From an uncultured Candidatus Saccharibacteria bacterium (GTDB taxonomy: Bacteria; Patescibacteriota; Minisyncoccia; Phycocordibacterales; Zambryskibacteraceae): a DNA stretch of 64,000 nucleotides. The position numbers and the translations under genes are program-made. The notes beneath the pieces were generated by a model that saw only the letters and a list, made by a program, of their open reading frames with translations, ran no database searches and was not told the DNA's origin. Of this stretch, positions 39,287 to 56,000 are shown in pieces; position 1 is the stretch's first letter; every line of letters starts with the position of its first letter. Where the stretch lies: positions 3,934-67,933 of the forward strand of contig CAYGIH010000001.1 of NCBI GenBank assembly GCA_964349945.1, given 5' to 3'.

Positions 39287-39287
39287 A

Positions 39288-39313: not shown

Positions 39314-39334
39314 TATTGACAAACAATAAATTTT

Positions 39335-39574
39335 CTAGTCCTCTAGGTGTTTAATCATTAGTTTCTTAATACGCTTTTCAGCGTTACTTTTGGTGGTACC
39401 TATCTCAATATCCTCAATTATCTTCTGGAGTGCGGTTAGTTTATAAACCCTATAGTTATTCATTGGGTGTCTGTGGGCAGGAAACTTACCTGAAGCGTCC
39501 CAATTCCTAAGAGTGAGAGGAGTGACACCTAATATCTCCGCCGCTTCTTTTATAGAAAAATATACTTCGCTCAT
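39335..39574 (-). CDS. Small HTH_17 (excisionase/MerR-like) DNA-binding protein
   Basis: 79-aa ORF. 'SIKEAAEILGVTPLTLRNWDASGKFPAHR...YRVYKLTAL' has the HTH_17/Xis-type pattern. It is homologous to the N-terminal repeats of both giant genes. Confidence 0.6.
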   Translation of the reverse strand: MSEVYFSIKEAAEILGVTPLTLRNWDASGKFPAHRHPMNNYRVYKLTALQKIIEDIEIGTTKSNAEKRIKKLMIKHLED

Positions 39575-39582
39575 ATAATTAG

Positions 39583-39603: not shown

Positions 39604-39857
39604 TGTATATTAATTTTATATTGATTGTATACAACTAGCAATAGATATGTATGTTTGAATGTTGATAACAGCAATTAATAATATTACTGAGTAAATGATC
39701 ATAAATAGAAATTCTGTGTGAAAAATTTACTATCTTCAGCACTAGGGTCGGTATAGGTCAGTATAATTCAAAGCGAGATGAGAGTGCTCCTGAGTACATA
39801 AATCAAACATTAAAAAAAATTTTTTATGCTGTAAAAAATTTTAGAATCTGCATAAAA

Positions 39858-39869
39858 GTTGTCCACAAA
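39858..39869 (+). promoter_or_regulatory. Conserved 12-mer GTTGTCCACAAA, 64 nt upstream of the giant gene 1 ATG (39922)
   Basis: The identical 12-mer recurs at 50019-50030, exactly 64 nt upstream of the giant gene 2 start (GTG 50083). Confidence 0.45.
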
Positions 39870-39897
39870 ACAAGAGATTTCTTGTTAGGAGAATAAG

Positions 39898-42800
39898 TTG
39901 CCGAGATTTACAATTAACCTTATGAATAAAGACTATTTTGCCGAGGAGGCAAAATACATCTCGGCAAAAGTTGCTTCAAAAAAAACTGGTTATGCGCAAG
40001 ATCATATCGGCGCTCTTGTGCGTTCTGGAAAGGTGATAGGAAAGAAAATCGGTCGAGCTTGGTTTGTTGATTTGGAGTCACTAGAGAATCATAAAAATTC
40101 GCAAAGTTTCAAAAGTGATAAAAAAGTTTCTCCTATCAAAAAATCTTTGGAGAGGGCGCTCGTCAGCGCGAGCTTCGCTTCAACTAAAGTTGGCTATGCT
40201 CAAGACCATATCGGAGCACTTATTCGTACAGGCAAGGTTAAAGGCAAAAAAATTGGTAGAGCTTGGTTTGTGGATTTGGAGTCACTTGAGAACCACAAGA
40301 CAAACATAAAGCTAAAAACAGTTTTAAAGCCAACAGCGAAAATTTTACCAATTGCTTCGATTGCACCAATTGAACCAAGACTTTCTTTACCCCATCCAAT
40401 TAGTCAAAAGGTAATTAAGTATGAAGAAGAAGTCGCTCCAAAATTTGTAGAGGTTTCTAAGGACAAATATAAGATAAAGAAAGAACTACTTCTCAGGGAA
40501 CTTCTAGGGGGAGCTCTCATCACCTCAATGCTCATTATGGTGGTCACCCTTGCTTCTGTCTCTGGTATAAAACAAATAGCTAAAACAGATACATTTAATA
40601 AATTGGCCGATGGTTCAATCAGTGCAGAAATATCTCAAGGTTTAAACAATACTAGCGCTTCTATCCTAGCTACTATCTCGGATGGATTACAGAATCTTTG
40701 GAATAATCTCTTTGGTAAGAAAGAAAATACTGTTTTGGTAGTGGTGCCACCAGATTCTCTTTCTAATAAAGAACCAACATTAAAACCCTCTACATCAGAA
40801 GGTTCAGGTAAGACTACTATAATCAATAATCCTCCGGCTCAAACAATCATCAATGAATACAAATCCATCACTCAAGTCACTCCGCTAGATCTAACCTTGG
40901 ATGATGTGGTAAACAATGGTGATACAACAAGACTGGATGTACGTTTACTCGGTAATGTAGAAATAGGAAAAAACCTTAATATTAAGGGCAGTATCGTTTC
41001 TGGCAGTTCAGTTATAGCCAAAAATGGCTCTTTTTCTTCGCTTAGCACTAGTGGAGATTTCTCTGCAGGAGGAGAGATAACCCTAGGGAATCCAGAAGAT
41101 AACTTCATCATTAATTCTAAGAATGTTTCTATAGATAAGGACGGCAACACTACCTTCCTAGGTAATTTCTTCTCGGCCAATGCTTCTACCACTAACGTTT
41201 ATGCAGTTAACTCTACCTCTACCAATTCATATATTTCTCTACTTACAGGAGATATTGCCACTATCACTAATTTCACTGGTACAAACAACACTCTTACTAA
41301 TCTCATCTATACCAATGCCACAGGTACTAACTCCACCACTACAAATCTTTTTGCCAACTCTGGAGTAATCACAAATCTCAATACTAATAATCTCAGTCTT
41401 GGTACAACCTCTACTTCAGCCAACATAAACATTGTTCAAACTTCTAATGGTTCGACCACTATCCAAGCGAATAGAATTACTGATGCTGCTCCTGCTGGAG
41501 ATTTCATCCGCTACAACAATGCGGCGAACGACACCACATTATTTAGAGTAGATAATTCTGGAAATTTGTATGCAGGAGGAATCATCAACTCTGGTTCACA
41601 AACAATCACCTCTACCTCTCAACCTCAGTTTAGAGTGCAGTATGATGCCTCAAACGAAAACACTAATTCTATCTCTGCTACAGGAGTCTCCACCTTTGGC
41701 TTTAATGGTTCAACTCCTCGAGCAATCTTTACCCCACAACTCAACGCCACCAACTCTTTCACCTTCACTGATCTCTCTTCTACTCCCATCTTCAACATAG
41801 ATACCCTAAACCAAATTGTCTCTGCTCCACATTTCCTCTCTACAAGTTCCACTACTCTCCAAAACTTCACCTTCATAAATGCTACAGGTACAAGTGCAAC
41901 GACGACGAATCTTTACACCACTTTACTCGTAGCAGGTAGTGCCACAACAACCAATCTTTTCTCTACAAATGGGGCTTTCACCAATTTATTATCTTCTTAT
42001 GCCACAACAACCAATCTTTATTCTTCAGGTCAAACTATATTGGCAGGAACAAGTGGAAATGTGGGCATAGGAACAACAAATCCAACAAACGCACTTAGTT
42101 TTGGAAATTCACAAAATCAGAAAATTTGGGTTGAGAATTCAACTAATGTTATTGCAGGTAGAGCACTTACTCTTTCGGCGGGAAGTACCGTAAACACAGG
42201 ACTCGTTGATTTTGCTCCTCTGAGTCAGGCAAATCTCAACTGGTGGAGTATGGCAGCTGCTCCTAGTGGCAATGTGTATGCTGCTGCTTATAATAACAAT
42301 CTTTACAAACAAACAAACGGAACGGGAAATTTTGTTGCCCAAGGTTTAAATGGAGGTTTGTGGGGTGTAGCGGTCGCCCCCAATGGAAATGTGTATGTAG
42401 CAAAGCACAATGATGATATCTACATGCAAACAAATGAGACTGGAAGTTTCGTAGCCCTTGGACAAACGCCAAGCTCTTGGGGAGCAATGGCCGCCGCCCC
42501 TAGCGGCAATGTGTATGCTCTAAAAGTGTATTCTGGAGCAGGACTTTACAAACAAACAAACGGAACTGGAGATTTTAATCTTGTTGTATCGGGTTCTTGG
42601 AATGCCGTAGCCGTCGCGCCAAATGGGAACGTCTATCTTGTTGGTAGTAGTGACATCTACATGCAGACAAATGAGACTGGAAGCTTCGTAGCCCTTGGGC
42701 AAGGAGCTAAAAGTTGGCAGTCTGTTACCGTTGCTCCAAACGGAGATGTGTATGCCGTTGTTTATGGTGGAGATGTCTACAGGCAAACAGGAGGAACTGG

Positions 42801-45800
42801 AAACTTCGTGGCACTTGGACAGATAAGTAGAAACTGGCAATCAATGGCTGCCGCTCCAAACGGAAATATCTATGCCGGTGTTGGTGGAGGAGATATTTAC
42901 ATGAATGTGGCACAAGGAGGAACAGCTGATTTGGCTGGAGGAAATTTGATTTTGTCTGCTGGGGTGGGTAAGGGAACTGGTGCAAGCAACATCTCATTCT
43001 TGACCGGCACAACGTTGACCTCGGGGACAACACTACAAGCATTGTCTGAAAAGATGACAATTTTAGGTAATGGAAATGTCGGCATAGGCACCACATCACC
43101 AACATACAAACTCTCCGTCGAAGGTTCATCAACTCTTGGTAATCAAGCTATCGCAGGATATTTTACTGCAACATCAACTACAGCCACTTCGACTTTTGCG
43201 GGAGCGGTGGGGATTGGGACGACGAATCCAACACGAGCATTCGAAATTGTTGGCAATGTTGAAAATAATAATACTGGAACAGCTTCACAATTATCAATAC
43301 GTGGAACTGCAAGTACAATAGATAAGTTAAATATTGGATATAACACTACAAGTAATTTTGGTTTTATTGAAGCAGTAAGAGAATCTTCCGTAACTCAGAA
43401 TCTTATTCTCGGACCTGTTGGAGGTAACGTTGGAATTGGAATTACGAATCCCAATTCTAAGCTCGCAGTGAATGGGACTATAGCAATTGCTGCTACAGTA
43501 AGCACAAGCATTCCTCAAACATTAATTTGGTCAAGACAAAGTGATAATTGGACACCAGCATCCATTGGTCAATTATATGATGGTTCAACATATGGAGGGT
43601 ATTTGGTTTTTAATACACACACTTCAAATCTGACTATTGGTGATCAGGCTACTCCACTAGAAAGAATGAGAATTGATAGTTCTGGTAATGTGGGTATAGG
43701 CACCACTTCTCCAGCATACAAACTCTCCGTCGAAGGTTCATCAACTCTCGGCAATCAAGCCATCGCAGGATACTTCACTGCGACTTCTACAACAGCCACT
43801 TCGACGTTTGCAGGAGGAATAACTGGCCCAAATAATTTTATTGTCCAACAAGTAAGCGGGAATGTTGGAATAGGGGTGAACCCAACATCAAATAAACTAG
43901 AAGTAACTGGCGTGACAAAAATAAATGGCACACTTACTGTGGATGGTCAGGGAACATACACGATCATTGGTCAATCAACAGGCTCCAGTCCTGCATGGTT
44001 TCAAACAAAAAATGGGAGTGGTGCATTCAATGAATTCGGTATAGTTGGTTCAAATGGGCAATTTGCAGTTACAACTATTACAGACGACGCGGTATTCAAA
44101 TTTACCGGTAGTAATTTCGTTATTGTTGGAGACAATCAATTAGAAAAATATAGATTTACTTCTTTGGGTAAATTTGGAATTGGAAGTACTTCTCCAACTT
44201 ATCAACTTTCCGTCGAAGGTTCGTCCACTCTTGGTAATCAAGCTATTGCGGGATACTTCACTGCGACTTCGACTACAGCCACATCAACATTTGCGGGAGG
44301 AATTTCTGGACCAAATAATTTTGTGGTTCAACAAGGAAGTGGGAATGTTGGGATTGGTGTGACTAATCCACAAGGAAAACTGGATGTATCTGAAATTCCT
44401 GATTTAGGAAGTGTTTACTTTCGTTCAACTGGTAGACCTTTTATAGATATTAAAGGAGGAGCAAATAGTTATAAAACACTTAGATTTTCTGACGGCGCTG
44501 ATGGTACTTATAAATGGGATGTAAATGTTTTACCTGCAGACGATGGAACATTACCTAATGGTTTTAGAATTAGCAATTCGGGTGGAACTGCTCTCTCTAT
44601 TAATTCAACAAATTATTATGTTGGTTTGGGAGGTATTAATTCTCCTGCTGGTGTACTTGATGTTAATGTTGGAGGTGGTCAAAGTGTATATTTTCGTTCA
44701 GCAGGACGACCATTTGTAGATATTAAAGGAGGAGCTAGTGATTATAAAACACTCCGATTTTCTGAAGGAGCAGATAGTACATATTTGTGGGATGTGAATG
44801 TTGAACCAACAAACAATAATATGGAATTTTGGGGAGGTGGAGGTTTTAGAGTAGCCTTCACTTCTGGGGGTAGTGTTGGTATTGGGACAGCGAATCCAGG
44901 ATATATGCTTGATGTTTCTGGAAGCAATGCAACTAGCCCGATGATTGTGGCTAGAAATGCGGTGAATTCTGGTGATACAAATTGGGGTTCACTAGGTATT
45001 CTAAATGATGCTGCGTATGCAGTGGGGAATAATGCACGTCTTATGTTTTTAGCTCATGATTCTTCTCAAGTCATTCATCCTTACGCAAGTCTTGGTTTAG
45101 AAGTTGAGGGTAATTATATGGGAGCAATAACTTTCAATACTCGAACTGTGGGTGGAGCTACTGGTGAACGAATGAGGATTACAAATGCTGGCAATGTAGG
45201 AATCGGATCAACCACTCCTGCATACAAACTCTCCGTCGAAGGCTCTTCCACACTTGGTAACCAAGCTATCGCAGGATACTTTACTGCCACTTCAACCACA
45301 GCTACTTCAACTTTTTCAGGAGCGGTTGGGATAGGAACGACGAGTCCAAATGCAAAACTTGCGATAACTGGGACAAGTGTTTCTGCGAACAATAAAACAT
45401 TTGTTGTTACCGACAGTTCGAATAATAAACTGTTTACTATACTTGATGACGGGAAAGTTGCCGTTGGCGCAAGAGACCCCTTTTACAACAAGTTCACTAT
45501 TAATCTAGGGGTCAATCAAAATATTGGTTTTGATAATGATGGAGGGGTATCACGTATCCAATTTAGAAATGATGTTAATTCTGGTCATGTGCCTGGAGTT
45601 TTTTCCGCTTCGAGTTTTAGTTTTTTAAGTGGAAATGTCGGAATTAACTTACCATCATTTTCATCTATTCCAAGTAGCCAACTTGATGTCAATGGAAATA
45701 TCGTGAGACAGGTTGATGCCACTGGAGTAGAGACTCGCATAGGCATACATTCAAATGATGGGCCAATCACGGCAACTTTTGGGGGTACATTGATTGGCAC

Positions 45801-48800
45801 AACCGGTGTTACGGATGGTAATGGAAATACATCGAACTACATTGCATTCCACACATACAAATCTGGTGTTAGATCAGGTGAAGTGATGAGAATAGACGAA
45901 AACGGGAATATTGGAATAGGGACGACTAGTCCAATGGCCAACCTTACAATAAATGGTACAACGGGTGCCATCTCGCAATCAGGAACCGCAAGTGGTGGAA
46001 CATTGCGAATCACAGAATATCCAAATTCAGGAGCAATGTTTTTGATTGGAACGAACGGAGGAAATTATGGTTATATTCAATACACGAACAGCGCTGATAA
46101 ATCAGTCGGTTATCCATTGGTCCTAAATCCAACTGCAGGCAACGTCGGAATAGGCACGACCACACCAACAGGGAAATTACACATTGTTTCAAACACAATA
46201 CCTTCACTTGTTGGAAGTGCTGCCGCAGGAATAATTATCACAAGCCAACAAAACTCCGGAACGGAATTAGCTATGGGTGTAGATTTAACTAATTCTCCTT
46301 ATCCAGCATATTTACAGTCCAGACATGCAGGCAATGGAACAGCTTATCCTTTAGCACTTAATCCTCTTGGTGGTAACGTCGGTATTGGGACTACGAATCC
46401 GGGGACGAAGTTAGATATTCAAGGCAACGATACCACGGCATACTCCACATCTTTGGCTGTAAGTCCCTCTGGGTCAGATTTGTTGAGGCTTTACAACATG
46501 TCTAACAGTTCCAACTTCACAGCTATTGAGCTTGGGTCACGTAATAGTGGCGCAGCGATAGGTCGCATCGTGCTCGTAGATGATGGAGGAGCTAATGGTG
46601 ACTTTGCGTTTCAGTTACGAAATGCGAGTGGAGCCAACACAGTGGAAAAAATGAGAATAACAACCACTGGCAACGTGGGTATTGGGACGACGGCACCGTT
46701 TACAAAATTAACCATCAAAGGTACGACATTCGCTGAAATGGATTTGACAAATGGGTCAACTGCTTTATTGGGCAATGATATTCTTGGTAAATATTCATTT
46801 AGGTCAGTTGATGCTGACGCTCATGTTGGTGGAGATCAAACTCTCGGTGGCATGTACGGTATTATTGTTCACGAAGCAGGTGGGACAGGTGTAATAGATG
46901 GTTCTGCAGATGAAGGTATGGAGCTATCCTTTACAACTTCAAAAAGGCCATCACCGAATACTCTTTTCACACTTACAGAGGCAATGAGAATTAATAAACT
47001 CGGTAATGTCGGTATTGGGACGACGACACCCGGGGCGGCTTTTCATTTATATAAATCAAACGCATCGCAGCCCTTTGCGCTATTTGAAGATATTGGGATA
47101 GATAGTAATCCAGCTATCCAAATTAAAAATGACGCTCAAGCATGGAACCTCCATACAGTTGGTGCAAGAAGTAATAATTTTGAAATATTTAATGCTACAG
47201 CAGGTGGCGCAGCAGCTAATGCATATTTGACAGTAACAACCGCAGGCAACGTTGGCATAGGGACAACATCACCAACAACTAAATTAGTAGTAAATGGTGG
47301 AGATATTTCAGTTGTAGATGTGAATCCATCTATAATGTTGAAATCAAGCGCTTCGGGAGAGCATTATGGTTTTTTACAATTCGATCACACAGAAGGAGAT
47401 TTTTTGAGAATGTTTGATGGCACAACTTATTCAATGCATTGGAGAGCTGGCAATGTCGGTATCGGCACCACAACACCAACTGCGGCACTAACTGTAAAAG
47501 ATAATAACCTTAATAAGAATGCTATTGAAATACAATCTAGTGCAGTTTCACCAAATAATTATATTTGGGGTTTGAGTGCACAATCAAATAATTTCTTTTA
47601 TATAAATCAAGGTTCAAACTATGGCACACCTACGACTAGATTAACTATTGATAATAATGGCAACGTCGGTATTGGTGTGACTAATCCTGGGAAACGGTTA
47701 TCAGTAGGTACTACTGGTACTGGAGATATTGGAGTGGGAGGAAGTATTTATATTGGAGAAAATTCTCCTTATGCAGGTGGTGGAAATTTATATTTGGATG
47801 CAACCGGTACGGGAGATAGAGATTTTAATTTAATTCAGTATAATGGTGCATCTTGGGTTACTAATTTATTTGTGAATGGAGGAAACGGCAACGTCGGGAT
47901 TGGAACTACGACCCCGACCAGCCATCTAGATGTCTATGGTTCAGCCATAAGTCAGGCTAACTTCAATTCAATATTTACCAACTTACATACAGGTGCTTCT
48001 GTAGTAAAAATTGAAGCAAGCGCAGATACGACTGTTAATACGTTTTATCACAGACTTCTTGATTTAGATTATAGCGGGGATGCCTCGGGTGTTACTGGAA
48101 CATATATGAGAATGCTTACTGGTGGTACTGAACGTTTTGGTATCGGTCTTTCTAATGATGAATTTGCAATTACTTCCAATGCTGTCGAAGTATTACATAT
48201 AACAACTGCTGGTAACGTCGGCATCGGGACGACGAATCCAAATTCATTACTCGAGCTTAAAGGGAATGGTGCAAGAATGGCAGTGAGAGATGACGGTGTT
48301 TCAACTGATGCTATAAATTTTGGCACAGATACGTCCGGAAATGGTATATTCCAAATGTATGATACAAATGGGGTACAGAGGGTAAATCTTTATTCTCATC
48401 AGACAGAAGGTATTGCAAATTATTGGTTTACAAACGGCAACGTCGGCATCGGGACGACGAGTCCGGGAGCGAAACTTCATTTAACTTCTAGTGTTGCAAA
48501 TGATACCTATTTGTTTTTAGATGCCGCTCATGCAACTGCAGGAACAGCTGGAGGTCTTGTTCAAAGGAGGGCACGGGGTTCGATTTCTTCACCTAGTGCT
48601 GTTTCAAGCGGTGACAGATTAGGATTGTTTGTAGCCCAGGGTTATGGCTCAACAGCATATGGTACTGCTGGAGGAATGACTGTAATAGCAGACGGTACTC
48701 CTTCTGGTGATAATATTCCTGGTCGTGTGGAATTTTGGACTTCAACAGCAAGCCTTCAAGATCAAATTAGAATGACAATAAAAAATGATGGCAACGTAGG

Positions 48801-49788
48801 CATAGGTACTACAAATCCCGGACAACAACTTACCGTCGCTGGTTCAATTGGATTTCTTGGAGTAACCAATGGAGCGGGGACTGCTTATCTCTGTCAGACT
48901 TTGGCGACTGGTGTAGTCTCAACTTCGACTACTGCTTGTAACCCTTCATCTATGAGGTTCAAGGATAATGTTGCAAATATAAATTATGGATTGAATGAAG
49001 TGATTCGTATGAGACCAACAACATTTGATTACAAACCAGAATTACTCGTACCTGGTCACCAAGTTGGATTCATTGCAGAAGATATGGCTGGCATAATCCC
49101 TGAAGTAGTTGGTTATGATTCAAACGGTTTGCCTTCAAACATTGATTATGGGAAGTTGACTCCAGTGTTAGTGAGAGCAATCCAAGAACTTGATTTGAAG
49201 TTTGATTTATTAAATGCTTCTACCACCGCATCGCTCTCACAAATTTCATTGGCTATCCAAGACCAGAGTCTGAAGATAGAAAGTATGCAAGCTGACATAG
49301 CCAACCTCATGAATACTGCTTCAACCACTCTAGCTACTCTCTCTACTCAAGAACAAAGAATTTCTGACATCGAAACATTGATTGCTTCATCAACAATATT
49401 TACAATAGCTACAAGTACAGCAACATCTTCAATAGATACAAATAATGGATTCCTCGCAAATATTATCTCTTGGTTAGGAAGTATGACAAATGGAATAGGG
49501 GACGTGTTCGCGAGTACGTTTAATGCGAAGGATAAAATCTGCGTAGATGGGGAATGTCTAACCAAGGATGATATCAGGGCCATGCTTTTGGTTATACATC
49601 CAGCAACCACAACAACAGATACGGGCACTACCACTCCAACTACAGATGTTGGCTTAACTCCTACTACAATAATAGATACATCCACAACCACCCCTATACT
49701 AGATACAAGTTCAACTACCACCCCTACTATAGACACCACTACGACAACAGTAACAATAGATACAGCCTCAACCACTCCAGTTATATAG
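39898..49788 (+). CDS. Giant (about 3290 aa) type-II membrane-anchored surface protein. It has two cytoplasmic HTH_17-like domains, one TM helix, and a tail-fibre-like GNVGIGTT repeat ectodomain. It also has a 7-blade propeller-like block and a C-terminal peptidase-S74 intramolecular-chaperone domain.
   Basis: Single uninterrupted ORF. The track start is a TTG at 39898, preceded by AGGAGA 7 nt upstream. An alternative start is the ATG at 39922 (MNKDYF...), which aligns with the gene 2 N-terminus. See the domain features below. Confidence 0.85.
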   Translation: MPRFTINLMNKDYFAEEAKYISAKVASKKTGYAQDHIGALVRSGKVIGKKIGRAWFVDLESLENHKNSQSFKSDKKVSPIKKSLERALVSASFASTKVGYAQDHIGALIRTGKVKGKKIGRAWFVDLESLENHKTNIKLKTVLKPTAKILPIASIAPIEPRLSLPHPISQKVIKYEEEVAPKFVEVSKDKYKIKKELLLRELLGGALITSMLIMVVTLASVSGIKQIAKTDTFNKLADGSISAEISQGLNNTSASILATISDGLQNLWNNLFGKKENTVLVVVPPDSLSNKEPTLKPSTSEGSGKTTIINNPPAQTIINEYKSITQVTPLDLTLDDVVNNGDTTRLDVRLLGNVEIGKNLNIKGSIVSGSSVIAKNGSFSSLSTSGDFSAGGEITLGNPEDNFIINSKNVSIDKDGNTTFLGNFFSANASTTNVYAVNSTSTNSYISLLTGDIATITNFTGTNNTLTNLIYTNATGTNSTTTNLFANSGVITNLNTNNLSLGTTSTSANINIVQTSNGSTTIQANRITDAAPAGDFIRYNNAANDTTLFRVDNSGNLYAGGIINSGSQTITSTSQPQFRVQYDASNENTNSISATGVSTFGFNGSTPRAIFTPQLNATNSFTFTDLSSTPIFNIDTLNQIVSAPHFLSTSSTTLQNFTFINATGTSATTTNLYTTLLVAGSATTTNLFSTNGAFTNLLSSYATTTNLYSSGQTILAGTSGNVGIGTTNPTNALSFGNSQNQKIWVENSTNVIAGRALTLSAGSTVNTGLVDFAPLSQANLNWWSMAAAPSGNVYAAAYNNNLYKQTNGTGNFVAQGLNGGLWGVAVAPNGNVYVAKHNDDIYMQTNETGSFVALGQTPSSWGAMAAAPSGNVYALKVYSGAGLYKQTNGTGDFNLVVSGSWNAVAVAPNGNVYLVGSSDIYMQTNETGSFVALGQGAKSWQSVTVAPNGDVYAVVYGGDVYRQTGGTGNFVALGQISRNWQSMAAAPNGNIYAGVGGGDIYMNVAQGGTADLAGGNLILSAGVGKGTGASNISFLTGTTLTSGTTLQALSEKMTILGNGNVGIGTTSPTYKLSVEGSSTLGNQAIAGYFTATSTTATSTFAGAVGIGTTNPTRAFEIVGNVENNNTGTASQLSIRGTASTIDKLNIGYNTTSNFGFIEAVRESSVTQNLILGPVGGNVGIGITNPNSKLAVNGTIAIAATVSTSIPQTLIWSRQSDNWTPASIGQLYDGSTYGGYLVFNTHTSNLTIGDQATPLERMRIDSSGNVGIGTTSPAYKLSVEGSSTLGNQAIAGYFTATSTTATSTFAGGITGPNNFIVQQVSGNVGIGVNPTSNKLEVTGVTKINGTLTVDGQGTYTIIGQSTGSSPAWFQTKNGSGAFNEFGIVGSNGQFAVTTITDDAVFKFTGSNFVIVGDNQLEKYRFTSLGKFGIGSTSPTYQLSVEGSSTLGNQAIAGYFTATSTTATSTFAGGISGPNNFVVQQGSGNVGIGVTNPQGKLDVSEIPDLGSVYFRSTGRPFIDIKGGANSYKTLRFSDGADGTYKWDVNVLPADDGTLPNGFRISNSGGTALSINSTNYYVGLGGINSPAGVLDVNVGGGQSVYFRSAGRPFVDIKGGASDYKTLRFSEGADSTYLWDVNVEPTNNNMEFWGGGGFRVAFTSGGSVGIGTANPGYMLDVSGSNATSPMIVARNAVNSGDTNWGSLGILNDAAYAVGNNARLMFLAHDSSQVIHPYASLGLEVEGNYMGAITFNTRTVGGATGERMRITNAGNVGIGSTTPAYKLSVEGSSTLGNQAIAGYFTATSTTATSTFSGAVGIGTTSPNAKLAITGTSVSANNKTFVVTDSSNNKLFTILDDGKVAVGARDPFYNKFTINLGVNQNIGFDNDGGVSRIQFRNDVNSGHVPGVFSASSFSFLSGNVGINLPSFSSIPSSQLDVNGNIVRQVDATGVETRIGIHSNDGPITATFGGTLIGTTGVTDGNGNTSNYIAFHTYKSGVRSGEVMRIDENGNIGIGTTSPMANLTINGTTGAISQSGTASGGTLRITEYPNSGAMFLIGTNGGNYGYIQYTNSADKSVGYPLVLNPTAGNVGIGTTTPTGKLHIVSNTIPSLVGSAAAGIIITSQQNSGTELAMGVDLTNSPYPAYLQSRHAGNGTAYPLALNPLGGNVGIGTTNPGTKLDIQGNDTTAYSTSLAVSPSGSDLLRLYNMSNSSNFTAIELGSRNSGAAIGRIVLVDDGGANGDFAFQLRNASGANTVEKMRITTTGNVGIGTTAPFTKLTIKGTTFAEMDLTNGSTALLGNDILGKYSFRSVDADAHVGGDQTLGGMYGIIVHEAGGTGVIDGSADEGMELSFTTSKRPSPNTLFTLTEAMRINKLGNVGIGTTTPGAAFHLYKSNASQPFALFEDIGIDSNPAIQIKNDAQAWNLHTVGARSNNFEIFNATAGGAAANAYLTVTTAGNVGIGTTSPTTKLVVNGGDISVVDVNPSIMLKSSASGEHYGFLQFDHTEGDFLRMFDGTTYSMHWRAGNVGIGTTTPTAALTVKDNNLNKNAIEIQSSAVSPNNYIWGLSAQSNNFFYINQGSNYGTPTTRLTIDNNGNVGIGVTNPGKRLSVGTTGTGDIGVGGSIYIGENSPYAGGGNLYLDATGTGDRDFNLIQYNGASWVTNLFVNGGNGNVGIGTTTPTSHLDVYGSAISQANFNSIFTNLHTGASVVKIEASADTTVNTFYHRLLDLDYSGDASGVTGTYMRMLTGGTERFGIGLSNDEFAITSNAVEVLHITTAGNVGIGTTNPNSLLELKGNGARMAVRDDGVSTDAINFGTDTSGNGIFQMYDTNGVQRVNLYSHQTEGIANYWFTNGNVGIGTTSPGAKLHLTSSVANDTYLFLDAAHATAGTAGGLVQRRARGSISSPSAVSSGDRLGLFVAQGYGSTAYGTAGGMTVIADGTPSGDNIPGRVEFWTSTASLQDQIRMTIKNDGNVGIGTTNPGQQLTVAGSIGFLGVTNGAGTAYLCQTLATGVVSTSTTACNPSSMRFKDNVANINYGLNEVIRMRPTTFDYKPELLVPGHQVGFIAEDMAGIIPEVVGYDSNGLPSNIDYGKLTPVLVRAIQELDLKFDLLNASTTASLSQISLAIQDQSLKIESMQADIANLMNTASTTLATLSTQEQRISDIETLIASSTIFTIATSTATSSIDTNNGFLANIISWLGSMTNGIGDVFASTFNAKDKICVDGECLTKDDIRAMLLVIHPATTTTDTGTTTPTTDVGLTPTTIIDTSTTTPILDTSSTTTPTIDTTTTTVTIDTASTTPVI
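39958..40095 (+). other. HTH_17-like domain, repeat 1, of giant protein 1 (cytoplasmic)
   Basis: 'ISAKVASKKTGYAQDHIGALVRSGKVIGKKIGRAWFVDLESLENHK'. This aligns with excisionase/MerR HTH_17 (..G.s..ti..li..G.l...kiGr.W.i...dLe..). Confidence 0.55.
40168..40299 (+). other. HTH_17-like domain, repeat 2, of giant protein 1
   Basis: 'ASFASTKVGYAQDHIGALIRTGKVKGKKIGRAWFVDLESLENHK' is nearly identical to repeat 1. Confidence 0.55.
40364..41136 (+). repeat. 773-bp segment of giant gene 1 that is 100% identical to 50546-51318 in giant gene 2
   Basis: Line-by-line comparison shows it is identical throughout. It covers the juxtamembrane region, the TM helix and the first ~190 aa of the ectodomain. Flanking sequence is only about 85% identical. 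Confidence 0.8.
40501..40569 (+). other. Single transmembrane anchor of giant protein 1 (N-in, C-out predicted)
   Basis: 'LLGGALITSMLIMVVTLASVSGI' is preceded by the basic stretch 'KDKYKIKKELLLRE', following the positive-inside rule. Confidence 0.6.
42241..42909 (+). other. Seven tandem ~40-aa repeats (beta-propeller-like) in giant protein 1
   Basis: The repeats follow the pattern W..[AV]A[AV]APNGNVYA......IY[KM]QTN[GE]TG[NS]FVALGQ, 7 times. Confidence 0.5.
43103..43228 (+). repeat. About 110-bp intragenic module, copy A (encodes ..YKLSVEGSSTLGNQAIAGYFTATSTTATSTFAGAVGIGTT..)
   Basis: Near-identical at the DNA level to copies at 43713, 44197, 45220 (gene 1) and 53044, 53695, 54247 (gene 2). 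Confidence 0.7.
43713..43815 (+). repeat. 110-bp module copy B
   Basis: gcatacaaactctccgtcgaaggttcatcaactctcggcaatcaagccatcgcaggatacttcactgcgacttctacaacagccacttcgacgtttgc. Confidence 0.7.
44197..44300 (+). repeat. 110-bp module copy C
   Basis: acttatcaactttccgtcgaaggttcgtccactcttggtaatcaagctattgcgggatacttcactgcgacttcgactacagccacatcaacatttgc. Confidence 0.65.
45220..45346 (+). repeat. 110-bp module copy D
   Basis: gcatacaaactctccgtcgaaggctcttccacacttggtaaccaagctatcgcaggatactttactgccacttcaaccacagctacttcaactttttc. Confidence 0.65.
48936..49220 (+). other. Peptidase S74 / tail-fibre intramolecular chaperone auto-processing domain at the C-terminus of giant protein 1
   Basis: 'NPSSMRFKDNVANINYGLNEVIRMRPTTFDYKPE...HQVGFIAEDMAGIIPEVV...IDYGKLTPVLVRAIQELD' matches the endosialidase/tail-spike chaperone pattern: a Ser-x4-Lys dyad, GFIAQEv..P.lV, and vDY..L...Li.AiQEL. 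A predicted coiled coil follows (49221-49400), then a Thr-rich tail (49600-49785). Confidence 0.6.
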
Positions 49789-49794
49789 GAGTAA

Positions 49795-49815
49795 GTTTAT
49801 TAAACATTAATAAAC
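49795..49815. promoter_or_regulatory. Perfect palindrome GTTTATTAA-ACA-TTAATAAAC, 7 nt after the giant gene 1 stop and upstream of giant gene 2
   Basis: 9-bp perfect inverted arms around an ACA centre. A degenerate copy lies at 39583-39603, upstream of the small HTH gene. Confidence 0.45.
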
Positions 49816-49829
49816 TAGGATAGAGAAAC

Positions 49830-49947
49830 TAGCTTTTAGCTGTTAAATTATAGCTGCTAGTAGATTCAGCTATTAGCTAAGAGCTTTCAGCTTCTAGCTT
49901 ATGATTCAAATAAGTTCTTAATACCAATAGCTCACAGCTAGTAGCTA
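49830..49947. repeat. AGCT-rich degenerate heptamer tract ([CT]AGCTNN, 7-bp phasing) in the intergenic region between the giant genes
   Basis: About a dozen AGCT tetramers between 49831 and 49987. Runs with exact 7-bp spacing: 49868/75/82/89/96, 49831/38 and 49928/35/42. Confidence 0.5.
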
Positions 49948-50018
49948 GTCAAGAAAGATGACAGTTCGTAGCCAGCACTTAAAAGCTGCACTAAAAATTT
50001 ATATAAATTTTAGTGCTA

Positions 50019-50030
50019 GTTGTCCACAAA
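50019..50030 (+). promoter_or_regulatory. Second copy of the conserved GTTGTCCACAAA box, 64 nt upstream of the giant gene 2 start
   Basis: Same 12-mer and same spacing as at 39858. Confidence 0.45.
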
Positions 50031-50082
50031 GTGATATATATTCTGCTAGGATAATTGTAATTGGAATTCTATAATATATGTT

Positions 50083-53000
50083 GTGAATAAAGAACTTTTT
50101 AGCGAGAACGGAGAATTCATCTCGTCGAGACTTGCCTCAAAAAAAATTGGTTATTCTCATGACCATATTAGTGCTCTCATCCGTTCTGGAAAAGTTAGTG
50201 GAAAGAAAGTTGGCCGTGTTTGGTTGGTAGATTTTCATTCACTAGAAAATTATAAAAAAAGTATTGATTTAAAGAACTTTGAGCCAGGAAAAATAAGTGG
50301 CCAAATGAGATCATACACGTTTAAGACTAAAAATCACTTAGGTAAGAATTTTTTATCTGTAGAGAAGGCTTCTAAGAAAATTGGTTATAGTCAGGACCAT
50401 ATAGGAGCCCTTGTTCGTGGAGGAAAGGTGGCTGGTCAAAAAATTGGGAGAGTGTGGTACGTAGATTTTAGATCTCTCCGTAGGCACAAAAAAAGTCAAA
50501 GAATTATATTTAGGCAGAATGTTCAAAAGCCAACAACGAATGTTCCACCAATTGAACCAAGACTTTCTTTACCCCATCCAATTAGTCAAAAGGTAATTAA
50601 GTATGAAGAAGAAGTCGCTCCAAAATTTGTAGAGGTTTCTAAGGACAAATATAAGATAAAGAAAGAACTACTTCTCAGGGAACTTCTAGGGGGAGCTCTC
50701 ATCACCTCAATGCTCATTATGGTGGTCACCCTTGCTTCTGTCTCTGGTATAAAACAAATAGCTAAAACAGATACATTTAATAAATTGGCCGATGGTTCAA
50801 TCAGTGCAGAAATATCTCAAGGTTTAAACAATACTAGCGCTTCTATCCTAGCTACTATCTCGGATGGATTACAGAATCTTTGGAATAATCTCTTTGGTAA
50901 GAAAGAAAATACTGTTTTGGTAGTGGTGCCACCAGATTCTCTTTCTAATAAAGAACCAACATTAAAACCCTCTACATCAGAAGGTTCAGGTAAGACTACT
51001 ATAATCAATAATCCTCCGGCTCAAACAATCATCAATGAATACAAATCCATCACTCAAGTCACTCCGCTAGATCTAACCTTGGATGATGTGGTAAACAATG
51101 GTGATACAACAAGACTGGATGTACGTTTACTCGGTAATGTAGAAATAGGAAAAAACCTTAATATTAAGGGCAGTATCGTTTCTGGCAGTTCAGTTATAGC
51201 CAAAAATGGCTCTTTTTCTTCGCTTAGCACTAGTGGAGATTTCTCTGCAGGAGGAGAGATAACCCTAGGGAATCCAGAAGATAACTTCATCATTAATTCT
51301 AAGAATGTTTCTATAGATGAAGATGGTAATGCCAACTTTGTTGGTGGGCTGACTGCGACTTTTTTGGATTTGACTGGGCCAACCACTATGGGTGATTTGG
51401 AATTTAATAATGCCACAGGCACTTCTGCTACTACTACAAATCTTGCTACCACTAATTTCACCACTTCTAACCTCAACACGAATAATTTAAGTCTTGGGAC
51501 TACTTCAACTTCTGCCAACATTAATATCACCCAAACTGCCAATGGTTCAACTACTATCCAAGCCAACAGATTCACTGATGCTGCACCAAGTGGAGATTTC
51601 ATCAGATACAACAATGCGGCGAATGACACCACACTCTTTCGAGTAGATAATTCTGGCAACCTTTATGCAGGAGGAATCATTAACTCTGGTTCTCAAACCA
51701 TCACCTCCACCTCTCAACCGCAATTTAGAATTCAATACGATGCATCAAATGAAAACACCACTTCAGTTACCTTAAACGGAGTTACTACATATGGTTTCAA
51801 TGGTACCACCCCTCGAGCTATCTTCACTCCGCAGTCTAACCGCACTGATACCTTTACTTTTACTGATGCATCATCAAATCCAATATTTAATATTGATACG
51901 ACTAATCAACGAGTAGGTATTGGCACTACTTCTCCATTCGCTAAACTTTCAATCAGTAATGCAGTCACAGATACAGTCAACACTCCACTTCTAAATATTT
52001 CTTCAACTACCGGAGGTACATCAACTACTACTTTGTTTACAGTTCTTGCGAGTGGAAATGTGGGTATAGGAACTACGTCGCCAACAAATAAACTTAGTGT
52101 TTCAGGAAACGCCGATATTTCAGGCACTCTTACTGTTTCTGGAAATGCGGCGTTTGGAGGTGGTACGGTTCAAGGCAATGCTGTAGTGTATGCGTCTAAG
52201 ACAATAACATCAGTTTTATCTCAAGCAGGTTTAAGTGGAGTGCTTACTCTTAATCCCAGTGGCAATACAAGTGCGAGTTATCTCGGTGGTCAAGGGGCTC
52301 TTCTTGTTTCAAGTGGAAATGTAAGAAATCTTACAGGTACGATTTTAGGACTACTTGGTGAGGTTCAACATAGTGGTACCGGAATTTTAAGCAATCCAAT
52401 CGGTGTGATTGGTAATGTGATAAATAAATCATCCGGCAACATGACGAATGCTCAGGGGGTTAGATCCAGTATTGATAATAATGGTACTGGAATAATCACC
52501 AATGCTTATGGTACATACGCGATTATAGATAATACGAACACAGGCACAACAACAAATGCTTTTGATTTATTTGCTGCGAACGGAGCAGTTTCCGCAGGAA
52601 GAATTGATAATTATTATGGTCTTTATTTAGAAAATATAACTGCTGGAGCACTGACTAATTATTCGATTTATTCTGCTGGTGGTAATAATTATTTTGGTGG
52701 AAATGTAGGCATAGGGACGACGAATCCTGGGTATAAACTTGATGTTGTTGGAAATGTGGATGGAGCAGTGAATGCATACGGCATGAGAAATCTTAGTGAT
52801 GGTGGCAGTGCCTATAGTATTTTCCAAATGTGGAATAATACAGCCAATACTGCTGGATTTTTCTTTAATTCATCCAATCGTGGTGGAGATGGTGGGCCAA
52901 ATGGATTCTCTTTCTTCAATGATGCTGGGCCAGTAAGATTTAGGGGTAATGGAAATGTGATTTTTGCCACAGGGGCTTATCCGGGTGTAGATAAAATGAT

Positions 53001-56000
53001 TCTTTCTTCTGGGGGTAATTTTGGTATTGCTACTTCTTCTCCTACATATGCTCTCTCCGTCGAAGGTTCATCAACTCTTGGTAATCAAGCTATTGCTGGT
53101 TACTTCACTGCAACTTCTACAACAGCTACGTCTACGTTTGCTGGAGCGGTGGGGATTGGGACGACAACGCCTTCCTCTAAGTTTGCGATCACAGGCTTGG
53201 GAACAGGTATTGGTAGAGCCTTTGTTGTTGCTGATTCTACAAATTCAGAGAAACTTTCAGTTCTTGATAATGGAAGCATTGTTTCAAATGGCCAAATTAC
53301 TTTCCCTAATTCGAATGGTCTCCATTCTGGTTATGGCATAGGGAATAGTGGCGAAAATCGTCTCCAATTTAATGGAGGTCCTAATGGATATGTTTTCAAT
53401 AGTTATAGCAATGGTTCGAATATTTTGAGTATAGATAATACTGGAAATATCGGTGTGCTTGGTTCAAACATTAGTCTGGGTACAGGCAGTGGTTCATATT
53501 CACAAGTTATCTTGAGTACTTCAGGTAGGAATTGGGATTTTGGGGTGGATACTGGTTCAGCTCCTGTTGGGGGGTTCTCTATACGTGATAGAGATAATTC
53601 CTATGCAAAAGTATTTACCTTGGAAGCTGGTGCACCAAATGGTTCATTTTATGTAAAAAATTCTGGCAACGTTGGTATTGGCACTACCTCTCCAACACAC
53701 AAACTCTCCGTTGAAGGTTCATCAACTCTTGGTAATCAAGCCATCGCTGGATATTTTACTGCGACTTCGACTACAGCTACTTCGACTTTCGCTGGAGATG
53801 TGAGAATTGCAAATAATAAAAAATTAGGTTTCCAACCTGTTCAAGGATATGACCATGCGAAATGGAACATGTCTGTTGATACAAATAATGATTTCACATT
53901 TAATGGTGAGGCTGGTAAAAACCTTACCTTTGCTGGTTTTGGTTCACTTGCTGCATGGCCGGAAAATGTAAGCCATCTCATATCTGGAACTGGAGATTTT
54001 CAAATGGATGGTTATACAGGTGGACAGTTGCGTTATCTCGGTGGTGATGCGAATTGGTATTCAGGTGCCGCAAGTGATTATTCGCTCGATGGAAGTTTTG
54101 GTATGAGATTTAGTATTGGTGCATCTGGAAACTCAAATCGAGGATGGACATTTTATGATAATACTTCATCAACGATTGAGGCTGCTATTTCATCTATAGG
54201 AAATGGATACTTTAGAGGAAGTTTGGGTATAGGCACCACAACTCCCGCATACAAACTTTCTGTCGAAGGTTCATCAACTCTCGGCAATCAAGCTATTGCA
54301 GGATATTTCACTGCAACTTCAACTACGGCTACTTCAACATTTGCAGGTGCGGTGGGGATTGGGACGACAACCCCAACTTCAAAAATGAGTATCGTTGGAA
54401 ATGGGTCTTCTGGAATTTTTGGACCATATATGAGCAACGTTTTGAATGTTAGTGGTGCAAATTTAGGTACTACCGCAGGGGATAATTCGCTCATTGCGTC
54501 GTTTGGTGCTGATGTTGGATCAGGTTGGCAAAATGCTTTAGGAATTAGAAGTTATAGATATTCAAATGGAAATGGTTATACTACTGCAGGAATAATGCTT
54601 GGGCTTGATTACAATACTGCGCCGATAATGAGTTATATAGGTTTGAATCAAAACGGCAATATTGGAATAGGAACAATGGACCCTCAAAAAAAATTAACAA
54701 TTGAAGTTGGGGGTGGTATTGATTATCAACTGCGTTTGGGTAAATCAAACGCTTATTATGATATAGGTAGAAATGATGTTGATGGATTACTGTACTTTAC
54801 AGGTAATCAAAGCTTTCCATATGTTGGTTATGTTTTCAATACTGGTAATTTAGGAATAGGCACTACTTCTCCATATCAGAAACTGGCAGTAGTTGGGAAT
54901 GTTTTGGCTGATGCATTTATTGCCACCTCGACTACTGCCACATCAACATTCTCAGGATTTATAGATGTAAATGGCACAGGGACAAATGCTACATCAACCT
55001 TCGCTTCAAACCTTTGGGTCAAGGGAGGATTGAAAGTAGGAACTGGTTCACTTTATCTGAATGATGCAGGTATCACTTCATCAGATGGAAACCTTTCAAT
55101 CCAAAGAAATACTAGTTCATATTTACTTGGTGGAAACGTGGGCATAGGGACAACTACACCAAATAAGAAATTTGTAATTCGAAGCAATAGTGACGCTAGT
55201 TTTTTAAGATTAGAGACTGATGGGACACACGGTGTTAAACCAATTATTTCTTTTGATTCAGGATTATCTGGAATTAATAGAATGGATAAGGCTCAAATTC
55301 AGGGTGGATATGATTCTGTGCAAAGTGGTTCTGGTGGTATTTTAAATTTTTTGACTAAAGATACTTCCGAAGTGTTGCAAAGTAGAATGTATTTAGATGC
55401 AATGGGTAATGTAGGGATAGGAACGACGGGACCGGGGGCACTATTAGATCTCTACAAGTCGGATGCGATCACTGGGGCGGGATTAAGAATTGTGAGTCAA
55501 GATACTGCCGTGGGCAGTCCTCCGTTTTCTACTATAGAATTCAAAACTTCACGGACAGATTCCACCAGCCTTCTACAAGCAGGCAGAATAGTCAGTGGTT
55601 GGGATGGTGCTGGATATGACACTGCGCGTACCACACTTCAATATCCTACAGGAGCTGATGCTTGGACTGATGGACTAACTCTTAAATACGGCAATGTTGG
55701 TATAGGGACAACGAATCCAGGGGCAAAATTGGATATTGGAACAACAGTAGATGGTAGTAAAACATTAGGAATTAATGGAGCAGATACAGCTTGGGATGCT
55801 ATTAGTTTCAATGCAGCATCTGCAGCCAAGAGTTATTCTATTGCGAGACGAGGGTCTGCAGAATATTTTGGTATTCTTAATAATGGTAATTGGCGCCTTG
55901 TTATAGCAGATACTACTGGTAATGTCGGTATAGGGACGACCACTCCTGGTTCTTTGTTGCATGCATATGCTGGTTCTGGTAATCCAGAATTTAGACTTGA

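What the first reader, a model, noticed from the sequence alone, without database searches (positions are those of the whole stretch)
40364..51318. 773-bp perfectly identical segment shared by the two giant genes (recent gene conversion or assembly collapse)
40364-41136 and 50546-51318 are identical base for base. They cover the TM anchor and the proximal ectodomain, while the flanking sequence on both sides is only about 85% identical. For two divergent paralogs, this block pattern indicates recent non-reciprocal recombination (concerted evolution of the membrane-proximal module) with free divergence of the N-terminal HTH region and distal ectodomain. Alternatively it could be a mis-assembly. 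Direct repeats of this length, 10 kb apart, would also allow deletion of the whole of gene 1 distal to the repeat, and variation of the ectodomain cassette.
Basis: seen in the sequence. Interest (0 to 1): 0.55.

Follow-up and report, generated by a model that had tools for sequence, protein, structure and literature searches.

The report
Gene-conversion block in two giant genes
Two neighbouring giant surface-fibre genes of a tiny (Patescibacteria) bacterium share a 773-base stretch that is letter-for-letter identical although the rest of the genes diverged long ago, which is best explained by one copy recently overwriting the other, an ordinary process, seen here in an unusual gene family.

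Summary
Window 40364-41136 equals 50546-51318 (773 bp, 0 mismatches), and the match cannot be extended by a single base. It is the only repeat of 90% identity or more in the window. They are 60-80% identical, with indels next to both edges and saturated synonymous divergence (dS 1.1-1.4, against 0 of 183 synonymous sites in the block).

The block encodes the only transmembrane helix, a linker and the base of the stalk of two tandem paralogs. Gene 1 is 3288 aa and gene 2 is 5201 aa. Each has two cytoplasmic HTH_17 domains, a transmembrane helix, a phage-tail-fibre-like ectodomain and a Peptidase_S74 chaperone domain.

A sister species at about 81% identity differs from the block at about 23% of bases, so the identity does not come from constraint. 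The best reading is recent RecA-type gene conversion between the paralogs.

Assembly artefact is not fully excluded. One independent k=31 assembly breaks exactly 30 nt into the block. An independent MEGAHIT contig joins the gene 2 head, the block and the gene 1 body. That contig is either a real recombinant or a mis-walk.

The sister species' gene is a gene 1/gene 2 hybrid, and a second near-identical patch lies at the C-termini. This is a known kind of process in an undescribed family, of moderate interest.

The parts
39335..39574 (-). Small 79-aa MerR/HTH_17 regulator gene, divergently placed upstream of gene 1. Context only; conserved at the same place in the sister species.
   Evidence: Pfam MerR 42 bits, HTH_17 33.6 bits. 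The same gene is present in L001 and L068. It has no significant similarity to the giant genes' own HTH domains.
39858..39869 (+). 12-mer GTTGTCCACAAA, 64 nt upstream of the gene 1 start codon. It is a conserved upstream element of unknown role.
   Evidence: There are only two copies in the window, at 39858 and 50019, each 64 nt before a start codon. The sister species has GTTGTCCCCAAA at the same place while its neighbouring bases differ.
39922..49788 (+). Giant gene 1 (3288 aa from ATG 39922): two HTH_17 domains, a TM helix, a tail-fibre-like ectodomain and a Peptidase_S74 domain.
   Evidence: ORF list. The exact 3288-aa product is in the protein collection, on an NCBI contig of 381,535 nt. 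Pfam S74. PHROG tail fibre families, E 1e-74 and 1e-43.
39922..40363 (+). Left flank L1: the cytoplasmic head with two HTH_17/excisionase-like winged-helix domains plus a variable linker. It is only about 48% aa identical to the gene 2 head.
   Evidence: Pfam HTH_17, 2 stretches. AF2 pLDDT about 80 for aa 11-60 and 81-130. Top Foldseek hits are Xis excisionases, but weak. dS 1.14, dN 0.39. tblastn 48%.
40364..41136 (+). Block copy 1: the 773-bp exact repeat (gene 1 aa 148-405). It encodes the PIEPRLSLPHP motif, the TM helix, a helix, a Pro/Ser/Thr linker and the conserved stalk base (IAKNGSF...GDFSAGGEITLG).
   Evidence: There is no Pfam family for it. The stalk-base motif is conserved across Patescibacteria loci.
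40486..40572 (+). The single transmembrane helix of gene 1, inside the block. The N-terminal side carries net charge +3, so the head is predicted to be cytoplasmic.
   Evidence: Kyte-Doolittle scan: the only 19-aa windows scoring above 1.8. AF2 helix at aa 181-220.
41137..41804 (+). Right flank R1: divergence resumes at once (13 of 27 bases differ). Gene 1 then has an extra 84-87 nt, followed by a protein-conserved stretch (75% nt; dN 0.06, dS 1.06). That stretch is where the sister species switches from gene-1-like to gene-2-like.
48946..49110 (+). Peptidase_S74 (intramolecular chaperone of endosialidase/tail spike) domain of gene 1.
   Evidence: Pfam 30.4-34 bits against a cutoff of 22. A Ser and a Lys five residues later are invariant in the alignment with homologs.
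49255..49419 (+). Second paralog-specific near-identical patch (gene 1 aa 3112-3166). It is 53/55 aa identical to the gene 2 C-terminus, within a region that is otherwise about 30% identical. It is probably an older conversion tract at the 3' end.
   Evidence: The patch is absent or different in homologs P0159-P0165. The gene 2 DNA for this part lies outside the window, so this is protein-level evidence only.
49789..50082 (+). Intergenic region holding the gene 2 upstream region. It contains an AGCT-rich heptad array (49831-49947) and the second copy of the 12-mer at 50019-50030.
50083..64000 (+). Giant gene 2 (GTG start; cut by the window end; 5201 aa in full, ending in a Peptidase_S74 domain).
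   Evidence: The frame is open from 50050 to the window end. P0012 (5201 aa) matches the window translation over all 4639 aa. C-terminal S74 57.2 bits. HTH_17 35.7 bits. PHROG tail fibre families, E 2e-105 and 5e-87.
50546..51318 (+). Block copy 2: the 773-bp exact repeat (includes the gene 2 TM helix at 50668-50754).

Best explanation
The two blocks are real copies in one chromosome, and they became identical through a recent intrachromosomal gene conversion. In that process, RecA-type homologous recombination repairs one paralog using the other as template. The two genes are old tandem paralogs that encode membrane-anchored, phage-tail-fibre-like giant surface proteins of a Patescibacteria (Minisyncoccia) bacterium. 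The converted tract covers the membrane anchor and the base of the stalk. It ends on both sides where homology collapses: an 18-nt indel abuts the left edge, and an 84-87-nt indel lies 27 nt past the right edge. What is shown: the identity, the age of the paralogs, the absence of any comparable conservation in a sister species, and a graph branch at the block edge in an independent assembly. What is inferred: that the mechanism is conversion, its direction (weakly, gene 1 to gene 2), and that the resulting 773-bp direct repeat 10,182 bp apart now serves as a substrate for unequal crossover. Unequal crossover there would delete, amplify or re-pair heads and ectodomains.
For: 1. 773/773 identical, and the only repeat of 90% identity or more in the window.
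2. Nei-Gojobori counts give 0 synonymous differences in 183 synonymous sites of the block. The left flank has dS 1.14 and the right flank dS 1.43, and the flanks are under purifying selection (dN/dS 0.05-0.34). So the paralogs are old and protein-level selection cannot explain the identity.
3. A sister species has the syntenic gene after GatB and the small HTH gene. Its housekeeping genes are 80-82% identical to the window. Its block is only 60-84% identical per 90-nt window and 76% identical in aa. The paralogs are therefore far more alike than the orthologs, which is the definition of concerted evolution.
4. Both edges are abrupt and lie next to indels.
5. Logan contig L001 (ERR3094292, k=31) is 100% identical to window 34136-40393 and stops exactly 30 nt (k-1) into the block. 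The same k-1 overlap is seen between L077 and L001. The reads of an independent assembly therefore contain two different left flanks entering the same sequence.
6. Both genes lie on one NCBI contig of 381,535 nt.
7. There is a history of exchange between these paralogs. The sister species' gene is gene-1-like for nt 1-1806 and gene-2-like for nt 1406-2531. A second near-identical patch lies at the C-termini.
8. Other members of the family carry sharp exact blocks of 894 bp (L055) and 475 bp (L036).
Against: No reads could be mapped, so exact identity of the two copies in the molecule is not proven. A short-read assembler that resolves an A-rep-B-rep-C loop prints the same repeat node twice, and polishing can erase a few SNPs. 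An independent MEGAHIT contig (L076) joins the gene 2 head, the block and the gene 1 body. That junction is absent from the window, so either the pairing across the block is not uniquely determined by short reads, or the population is heterogeneous. The direction of conversion is only weakly indicated: block identity to the sister species is about 77%, against about 79-83% for gene 1 flanks and about 63-72% for gene 2 flanks. No recombination genes were examined in this genome.
Confidence: 0.78

Rival explanations
1. Assembly artefact. The two copies are truly similar but not identical (for example 97-99%), and the assembler or polisher printed one consensus twice. Alternatively, the 10.2-kb loop between the copies was passed the wrong number of times.
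For: A 773-bp exact repeat is longer than typical Illumina inserts. The window is 100% identical to short-read Logan contigs, so it may be a short-read assembly. L076 shows that another assembler took a different path through the same block.
Against: Both copies lie between distinct unique flanks that are themselves homologous, so each gene must carry some version of this module. The segment from the end of gene 1 through the intergenic region to the gene 2 head is unique sequence, so it must sit between two block copies in any linear genome (inference from the repeat map). The independent k=31 contig ends exactly at the block edge plus k-1. The block in L076 is also 100% identical. Even with a few erased SNPs, the contrast with dS above 1 in the flanks would remain.
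Confidence: 0.1
2. Selected recombination hinge. The identical block (with the 3' patch) is maintained because it lets the cell re-pair heads and ectodomains, or change copy number, by homologous recombination. That would be a cassette or phase-variation system for the attachment fibres of an episymbiont.
For: An L2-block-R1 junction exists in a public assembly. The sister species' gene is a hybrid. Near-identical patches lie near both ends of the genes and bracket divergent ectodomains. Every product of crossover in the block would be an intact in-frame gene (inference).
Against: L076 may be a MEGAHIT mis-walk in a low-coverage genome: its ends at 50033 and 45120 are not at repeats, and it carries a stop codon at 43742. 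There is no recombinase or invertase near the genes in the window. A single conversion event needs no selection. No second genome with the same tandem layout was found among 75 loci, although the 10-kb flanks would mostly miss a second copy.
Confidence: 0.1
3. Functional constraint on the nucleotide sequence itself (an embedded RNA, an antisense gene or a regulatory element) keeps the two copies identical.
For: An antisense ORF, 51054-51659 (201 aa), overlaps copy 2.
Against: The orthologous block in the sister species differs at about 23% of bases and 24% of residues. There is no Rfam family in the window. The antisense ORF extends into the non-identical flank and has no counterpart of 150 aa or more at copy 1. 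Promoter- and terminator-like sites are at chance level.
Confidence: 0.02

Closest known systems
Gene conversion and chimera formation among Helicobacter pylori bab adhesin paralogs (babA/babB/babC)
   Same: Both involve paralogous surface adhesin genes with highly similar 5' and 3' segments and divergent middles. Intragenomic homologous recombination makes chimeras that re-pair heads and bodies (PMC4552749, as read). Here there is an exact 5'-proximal block plus a near-identical C-terminal patch, a hybrid gene in the sister species, and a possible hybrid contig.
   Different: The bab loci are dispersed and about 2.2 kb long, and recombination moves a phase-variable CT repeat. Here the genes are tandem and 10-16 kb long, no slippage repeat is involved, the organism is a Patescibacteria bacterium, and no chimera has been shown experimentally.
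Concerted evolution of duplicated genes in prokaryotes (for example tufA/tufB and rRNA operons; survey in PMC6053082)
   Same: The paralogs within one genome are more alike than the orthologs are between species, and the identity is tract-like (definition in the abstract read).
   Different: The classic cases homogenise whole, highly expressed housekeeping genes over long times. Here only about 8% of gene 1 is homogenised, the rest is at saturated dS, and the event looks single and recent.
Phage tail fibres and tailspikes with a C-terminal intramolecular chaperone (Peptidase_S74, endosialidase type)
   Same: The ectodomains hit PHROG tail-fibre families. Both genes end with an S74 domain above Pfam's cutoff. 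The Ser and the Lys five residues later are invariant. From established knowledge of the family, this implies trimeric fibres whose chaperone is cut off after folding.
   Different: These genes are chromosomal and lie among SecA, Obg and GatB. They are 3-5 thousand aa long, and they start with two cytoplasmic HTH_17 domains and a transmembrane anchor, which phage fibres lack.
Giant surface or attachment proteins of uncultivated bacteria (giant genes of Omnitrophota; bioRxiv 10.1101/2023.11.21.568195)
   Same: Both are very long, repeat-rich, membrane-anchored and mostly extracellular proteins proposed to contact host or prey. In both, internal repeats fragment assemblies.
   Different: The domain content differs (no dockerin, thrombospondin or enzymatic domains), the genes are much smaller than the 30,000 aa or more of that study, and the phylum differs. 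That study does not mention Patescibacteria or tail-fibre repeats (0 occurrences).

Membership tests
Gene conversion / concerted evolution between paralogs | Within the tract, the paralogs are more similar to each other than either is to the ortholog in a related species. | tested here: met
   100% between the copies, against 60-84% per 90-nt window (76% aa) to the syntenic sister-species gene L068.
Gene conversion / concerted evolution between paralogs | The tract is embedded in homologous sequence of much older divergence, with discrete end points. | tested here: met
   dS is 0 of 183 sites in the block, against 1.14 and 1.43 in the flanks. The edges are abrupt. The longest exact run elsewhere is 17 nt.
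Gene conversion / concerted evolution between paralogs | Both copies are physically present in one molecule and are truly identical. | tested here: inconclusive
   Both genes are on one 381,535-nt contig, and an independent k=31 assembly branches at the block edge. No reads were available, and a rival junction contig exists.
Gene conversion / concerted evolution between paralogs | The transfer is non-reciprocal (donor unchanged, recipient overwritten). | not testable with these tools
   This needs the pre-conversion allele or a closer strain. The comparison with the sister species only weakly suggests that gene 1 was the donor.
Peptidase_S74 intramolecular-chaperone fibre proteins | An S74 domain above Pfam's gathering score at the C-terminal end. 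| tested here: met
   Gene 1: 30.4-34 bits against a cutoff of 22, at aa 3017-3071 of the 3296-aa ORF read from TTG 39898 (nt 48946-49110). Gene 2 C-terminus (from P0012): 57.2 bits.
Peptidase_S74 intramolecular-chaperone fibre proteins | A catalytic Ser with a Lys five residues downstream (autocleavage dyad; recalled from the endosialidase literature). | tested here: met
   S3 and K8 of the query are invariant in all 9 aligned sequences. Cleavage itself was not tested.
HTH_17 / excisionase-type winged helix | A Pfam HTH_17 match above the gathering score, and the matching fold. | tested here: inconclusive
   Gene 2 head: 35.7 bits, above the cutoff of 27. Gene 1 head: 25.8 bits, just below it. 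The AF2 domains have pLDDT about 80. Foldseek's best hits are the Pukovnik Xis and RdfS excisionases, but at E 0.05-0.1. DNA binding was not tested.
Diversity-generating retroelement (template/variable repeat pair) | Two repeats that differ at adenine positions of the template. | tested here: not met
   There are 0 differences in 773 bp. The tract is also several times longer than DGR repeats (recalled from memory). The window was not screened for a reverse transcriptase.

The most novel reading that the evidence does not exclude
The exact block near the 5' end and the near-identical patch near the 3' end are maintained as recombination handles. On this reading they let this episymbiotic bacterium re-pair cytoplasmic HTH heads with different tail-fibre-like ectodomains, and expand or contract the array, which would amount to a recombination-based surface-variation system in Patescibacteria. 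The L2-block-R1 contig and the hybrid gene in the sister species would be its footprints.
Probability: 0.12. Interest if true: 0.65.

Novelty: new member of a known kind. Interest (0 to 1): 0.4.

Why it matters
Gene conversion between paralogous surface-protein genes is a well-known route to variation in pathogens. It has hardly been documented in Patescibacteria (CPR), whose lifestyle depends on attaching to host cells and whose giant surface genes are usually broken in assemblies. If it is real, this locus shows three things. These tail-fibre-like giant genes evolve as mosaics by homologous recombination. The membrane-anchor module is exchanged as a unit. Short-read assemblies can mis-pair heads and bodies across such blocks.

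The gene family itself deserves description. It combines two cytoplasmic excisionase-like HTH domains, a single TM helix, a phage-fibre ectodomain and an S74 chaperone. The profile search found 1330 representative proteins at E of 1e-10 or better, although many of these match only the HTH part.

Tried and rejected
- **Exact look-ups of gene 1.** The exact gene 1 product was looked up in the contig index from two start codons, and a predicted Logan fragment (43732-49785) was also tried. Nothing was on record.
- **Block peptide.** A homolog search with the block peptide alone returned nothing, although the protein collection holds proteins that contain it. That is a limit of the word index, not a biological result.
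- **Public collections.** JGI metagenomes and GTDB genomes hold no contig of this species, only relatives. IMG/VR has no exact match to the block.
- **Third contig.** A 20-50 kb contig that carries the upstream genes was never shown by the look-ups, so its end is unknown.
- **RNA and signal scans.** Rfam and tRNA scans of the window were empty. Promoter and terminator scans were at chance level.
- **Structure prediction.** AF2 of the first 627 aa with 5 sequences gave confident models only for the HTH domains. The fold of the block's ectodomain part is therefore unknown, and the Foldseek hits are weak.
- **Readings rejected.** Rejected readings were a DGR (no mismatches), an ultraconserved element (the sister species diverges) and a collapsed single copy (both copies have distinct unique flanks). 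The small MerR gene as the source of the giant genes' HTH domains was also rejected (no similarity).
- **Literature.** Searches found no description of this family and nothing on the sample ERR3094292.


Full report
**1. The observation**

A direct comparison shows that window 40364-41136 and 50546-51318 are both 773 nt and identical. The neighbouring base on each side differs. A self-BLAST of the window finds no other repeat of 90% identity or more. In a gapped alignment of the two gene heads, the longest exact run outside the block is 17 nt.

They are not about 85% identical:
- The upstream region and first HTH are 72% identical.
- The second HTH is about 71% identical.
- The linker just left of the block is unalignable, and gene 1 has 18 extra bases abutting the edge.
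- Right of the block, 13 of the first 27 bases differ. Gene 1 then has 84-87 extra bases, followed by a stretch at 75%.

**2. What the block lies in**

Gene 1 runs from 39922 to 49788 (3288 aa). Gene 2 starts with GTG at 50083 and leaves the window. A representative-protein search returned P0012, 5201 aa, whose first 4639 residues equal the window's translation. Gene 2 is therefore 5201 aa long. Both genes lie on one NCBI contig of 381,535 nt.

Both proteins have the same architecture:
- Two N-terminal HTH_17 domains. AF2 gives pLDDT of about 80 with a winged-helix topology. The best, but weak, structural matches are Xis-type excisionases.
- One transmembrane helix, with the positive charge on the N-terminal side.
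- A very long ectodomain built of GNVGIGTTxP-type repeats that matches PHROG tail-fibre families.
- A Peptidase_S74 intramolecular-chaperone domain near the C-terminus. Its Ser and the Lys five residues later are invariant among homologs.

The surroundings are cellular: glycosyltransferases, a Wzy-type ligase, SecA, DsbB, Obg and GatB. The nearest database proteins are from Minisyncoccia (Patescibacteria) MAGs.

The block encodes aa 148-405 of gene 1. That covers a conserved PIEPRLSLPHP motif, the TM helix, a helix, a Pro/Ser/Thr linker and the stalk base. The stalk-base motif (IAKxGSF...GxFSAxGxITLG) recurs about 1 kb downstream of the HTH head in many Patescibacteria loci.

**3. Why the identity means recent homogenisation**

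- Nei-Gojobori counts on the codon alignment give dS = 1.14 for the left flank and 1.43 for the right flank. A protein-conserved stretch on the right has dN 0.058 and dS 1.06. The block has 0 synonymous differences in 183 synonymous sites. The paralogs are therefore old, and selection on the protein does not remove synonymous change in this gene pair.
- Three MAGs of a sister species carry the syntenic gene after GatB and the small divergent MerR/HTH_17 gene. Housekeeping DNA there is 80-82% identical to the window. Its block is 60-84% identical per 90-nt window and 76% identical in protein. The block therefore evolves at an ordinary rate between species, which excludes an ultraconserved element.
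- The tract ends abruptly on both sides, next to indels. Branch migration or mismatch-tolerant strand exchange would be expected to stop at such places. That last point is inference.

**4. Is it an assembly artefact?**

A 'collapsed single copy' is not possible as stated, because each copy sits between its own unique flanks. The segment from the end of gene 1 through the intergenic region to the gene 2 head contains no repeated 31-mer apart from short ones at 43103-43760. It must therefore lie between two block copies in any linear genome.

Independent evidence comes from Logan contig L001 (run ERR3094292, k=31). It equals window 34136-40393 without a mismatch and ends exactly 30 nt into the block. 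That is what a de Bruijn graph does when two different left flanks enter the same sequence. The same 30-nt overlap links L077 and L001 at another branch. The organism is also present in run ERR3094302.

Two possibilities remain open. A few true differences between the copies may have been erased by the assembler or polisher. The 10.2-kb loop may also occur more than once.

**5. An alternative junction exists in public data**

P0011 (1280 aa) is encoded on L076, a 5270-nt MEGAHIT contig of ENA assembly ERZ27247817. Its parts are as follows:

| L076 position | Window position | Identity |
|---|---|---|
| 1-513 | 50033-50545 (gene 2 head) | 100% |
| 514-1286 | the block | 100% |
| 1287-5270 | 41137-45120 (gene 1 body) | two substitutions, 43742 C>G (creates a stop codon) and 43754 A>G |

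Neither substitution is copied from another repeat in the window.

L2-block-R1 is the junction expected from unequal crossover (a triplication) or from an excised circle. It is also a legal mis-walk through the graph if the L1-to-block and block-to-R2 edges were lost at k=141 in a low-coverage genome. The contig's ends are not at repeats, which fits low coverage. I cannot decide between these readings. Either way, the contig shows that short reads do not fix the pairing across the block.

**6. Older exchanges between the same paralogs**

The sister species' gene at the gene 1 position aligns with gene 1 over nt 1-1806 (78%), including gene 1's extra 84-87 nt. It aligns with gene 2 over nt 1406-1868 and 1852-2531 (81%), where gene 1 has no counterpart. 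The switch lies in the protein-conserved stretch near 41750.

At the C-termini, gene 1 aa 3112-3166 (nt 49255-49419) is 53/55 aa identical to gene 2, within a region that is otherwise about 30% identical. Other homologs lack this patch or differ there. It is probably a second, older conversion tract, but the gene 2 DNA for it lies outside the window.

The three sister-species MAGs are identical to one another except for short patches, one of which ends within about 25 nt of the window's left block edge. Two other family members carry sharp exact intragenic blocks: L055 has 894 bp repeated 1920 bp apart, and L036 has 475 bp repeated 714 bp apart.

**7. Mechanism and rivals**

The best-supported explanation is a recent RecA-type gene conversion between tandem paralogs (confidence 0.78). 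The donor is weakly indicated as gene 1. The block's identity to the sister species (about 77%) is nearer to that of the gene 1 flanks (about 79-83%) than to that of the gene 2 flanks (about 63-72%).

A consequence, by inference, is that the 773-bp direct repeats 10,182 bp apart can now mediate deletion, amplification or re-pairing. Every product of such an event would be an intact in-frame gene.

The rivals are:
- an assembly artefact (0.10);
- a selected recombination hinge for surface variation (0.10; this is compatible with conversion as the mechanism);
- nucleotide-level constraint (0.02, effectively refuted).

**8. Comparison with what is known**

The process is ordinary concerted evolution or gene conversion (definition as in PMC6053082). 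The closest functional analogue is the H. pylori bab adhesin family. There, similar 5' and 3' segments flank divergent middles, and intragenomic recombination yields chimeras (PMC4552749).

The proteins resemble phage tail fibres with S74 chaperones, but they are chromosomal, membrane-anchored and headed by HTH domains. I found no paper that describes this architecture.

**9. Verdict**

This is a new member of a known kind, with interest 0.4. The most novel reading that the evidence does not exclude is a recombination-based surface-variation system in Patescibacteria (probability about 0.12).

Noticed in passing
window 49831-49947 (intergenic, upstream of gene 2): There are 12 AGCT tetranucleotides in about 155 nt, 12 times the window's density. 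They show 7-nt phasing, including five tandem NAGCTNN heptads at 49868-49902. No such array lies upstream of gene 1. The function is unknown.
   Followed up: partly
window 39858-39869 and 50019-50030: The 12-mer GTTGTCCACAAA lies exactly 64 nt before both giant-gene start codons, and these are its only two copies in the window. The sister species has GTTGTCCCCAAA at the same position while the surrounding bases differ. It could be a promoter or operator element, possibly for one of the HTH proteins.
   Followed up: partly
window 39335-39574 (-): A 79-aa MerR/HTH_17 gene lies divergently upstream of gene 1 and is conserved in the sister species. It is not detectably related to the giant genes' own HTH domains.
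   Followed up: yes
L068 10001-12618 (sister species, GCA_049295975.1) against window 39922-41772 and 51467-52739: The sister species' gene at the gene 1 position is a hybrid. It has a gene-1-like head and proximal part and a gene-2-like distal part, and the switch lies in a protein-conserved stretch.
   Followed up: yes
L076 (ENA ERZ27247817, k141_850012), nt 3891-3893 = window 43741-43743: The L2-block-R1 contig carries a TCA>TGA change that truncates the hybrid ORF at 1280 aa, plus a second SNP 12 nt later. Neither change comes from another repeat copy in the window. They may be strain differences or errors.
   Followed up: partly
window 49255-49419 and the C-terminus of P0012 (outside the window): A 55-aa patch after the S74 domain is 53/55 identical between the two giant proteins, while the S74 domains themselves are only about 30% identical. 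It looks like a second homogenised tract.
   Followed up: partly
L055 11740-12633 / 13660-14553; L036 9995-10469 / 10709-11183: Other Patescibacteria genes of the same family contain exact intragenic repeats of 894 bp and 475 bp with sharp edges. Block-wise homogenisation, or assembler reuse of repeat nodes, may therefore be common in this family.
   Followed up: partly
window 42250-42880: A run of about 39-aa repeats (AAAPSGNVYA...LYKQTNGTGNFVA) occurs in gene 1 only. It resembles a beta-propeller-like repeat and is absent from the collinear part of gene 2.
   Followed up: no
window 26860-29478: An 872-aa protein has an LCAT/DUF676-type alpha/beta-hydrolase (lipase-like) domain. It lies next to a Wzy_C-TPR protein and a long glycosyltransferase cluster (1-25650).
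   Followed up: no
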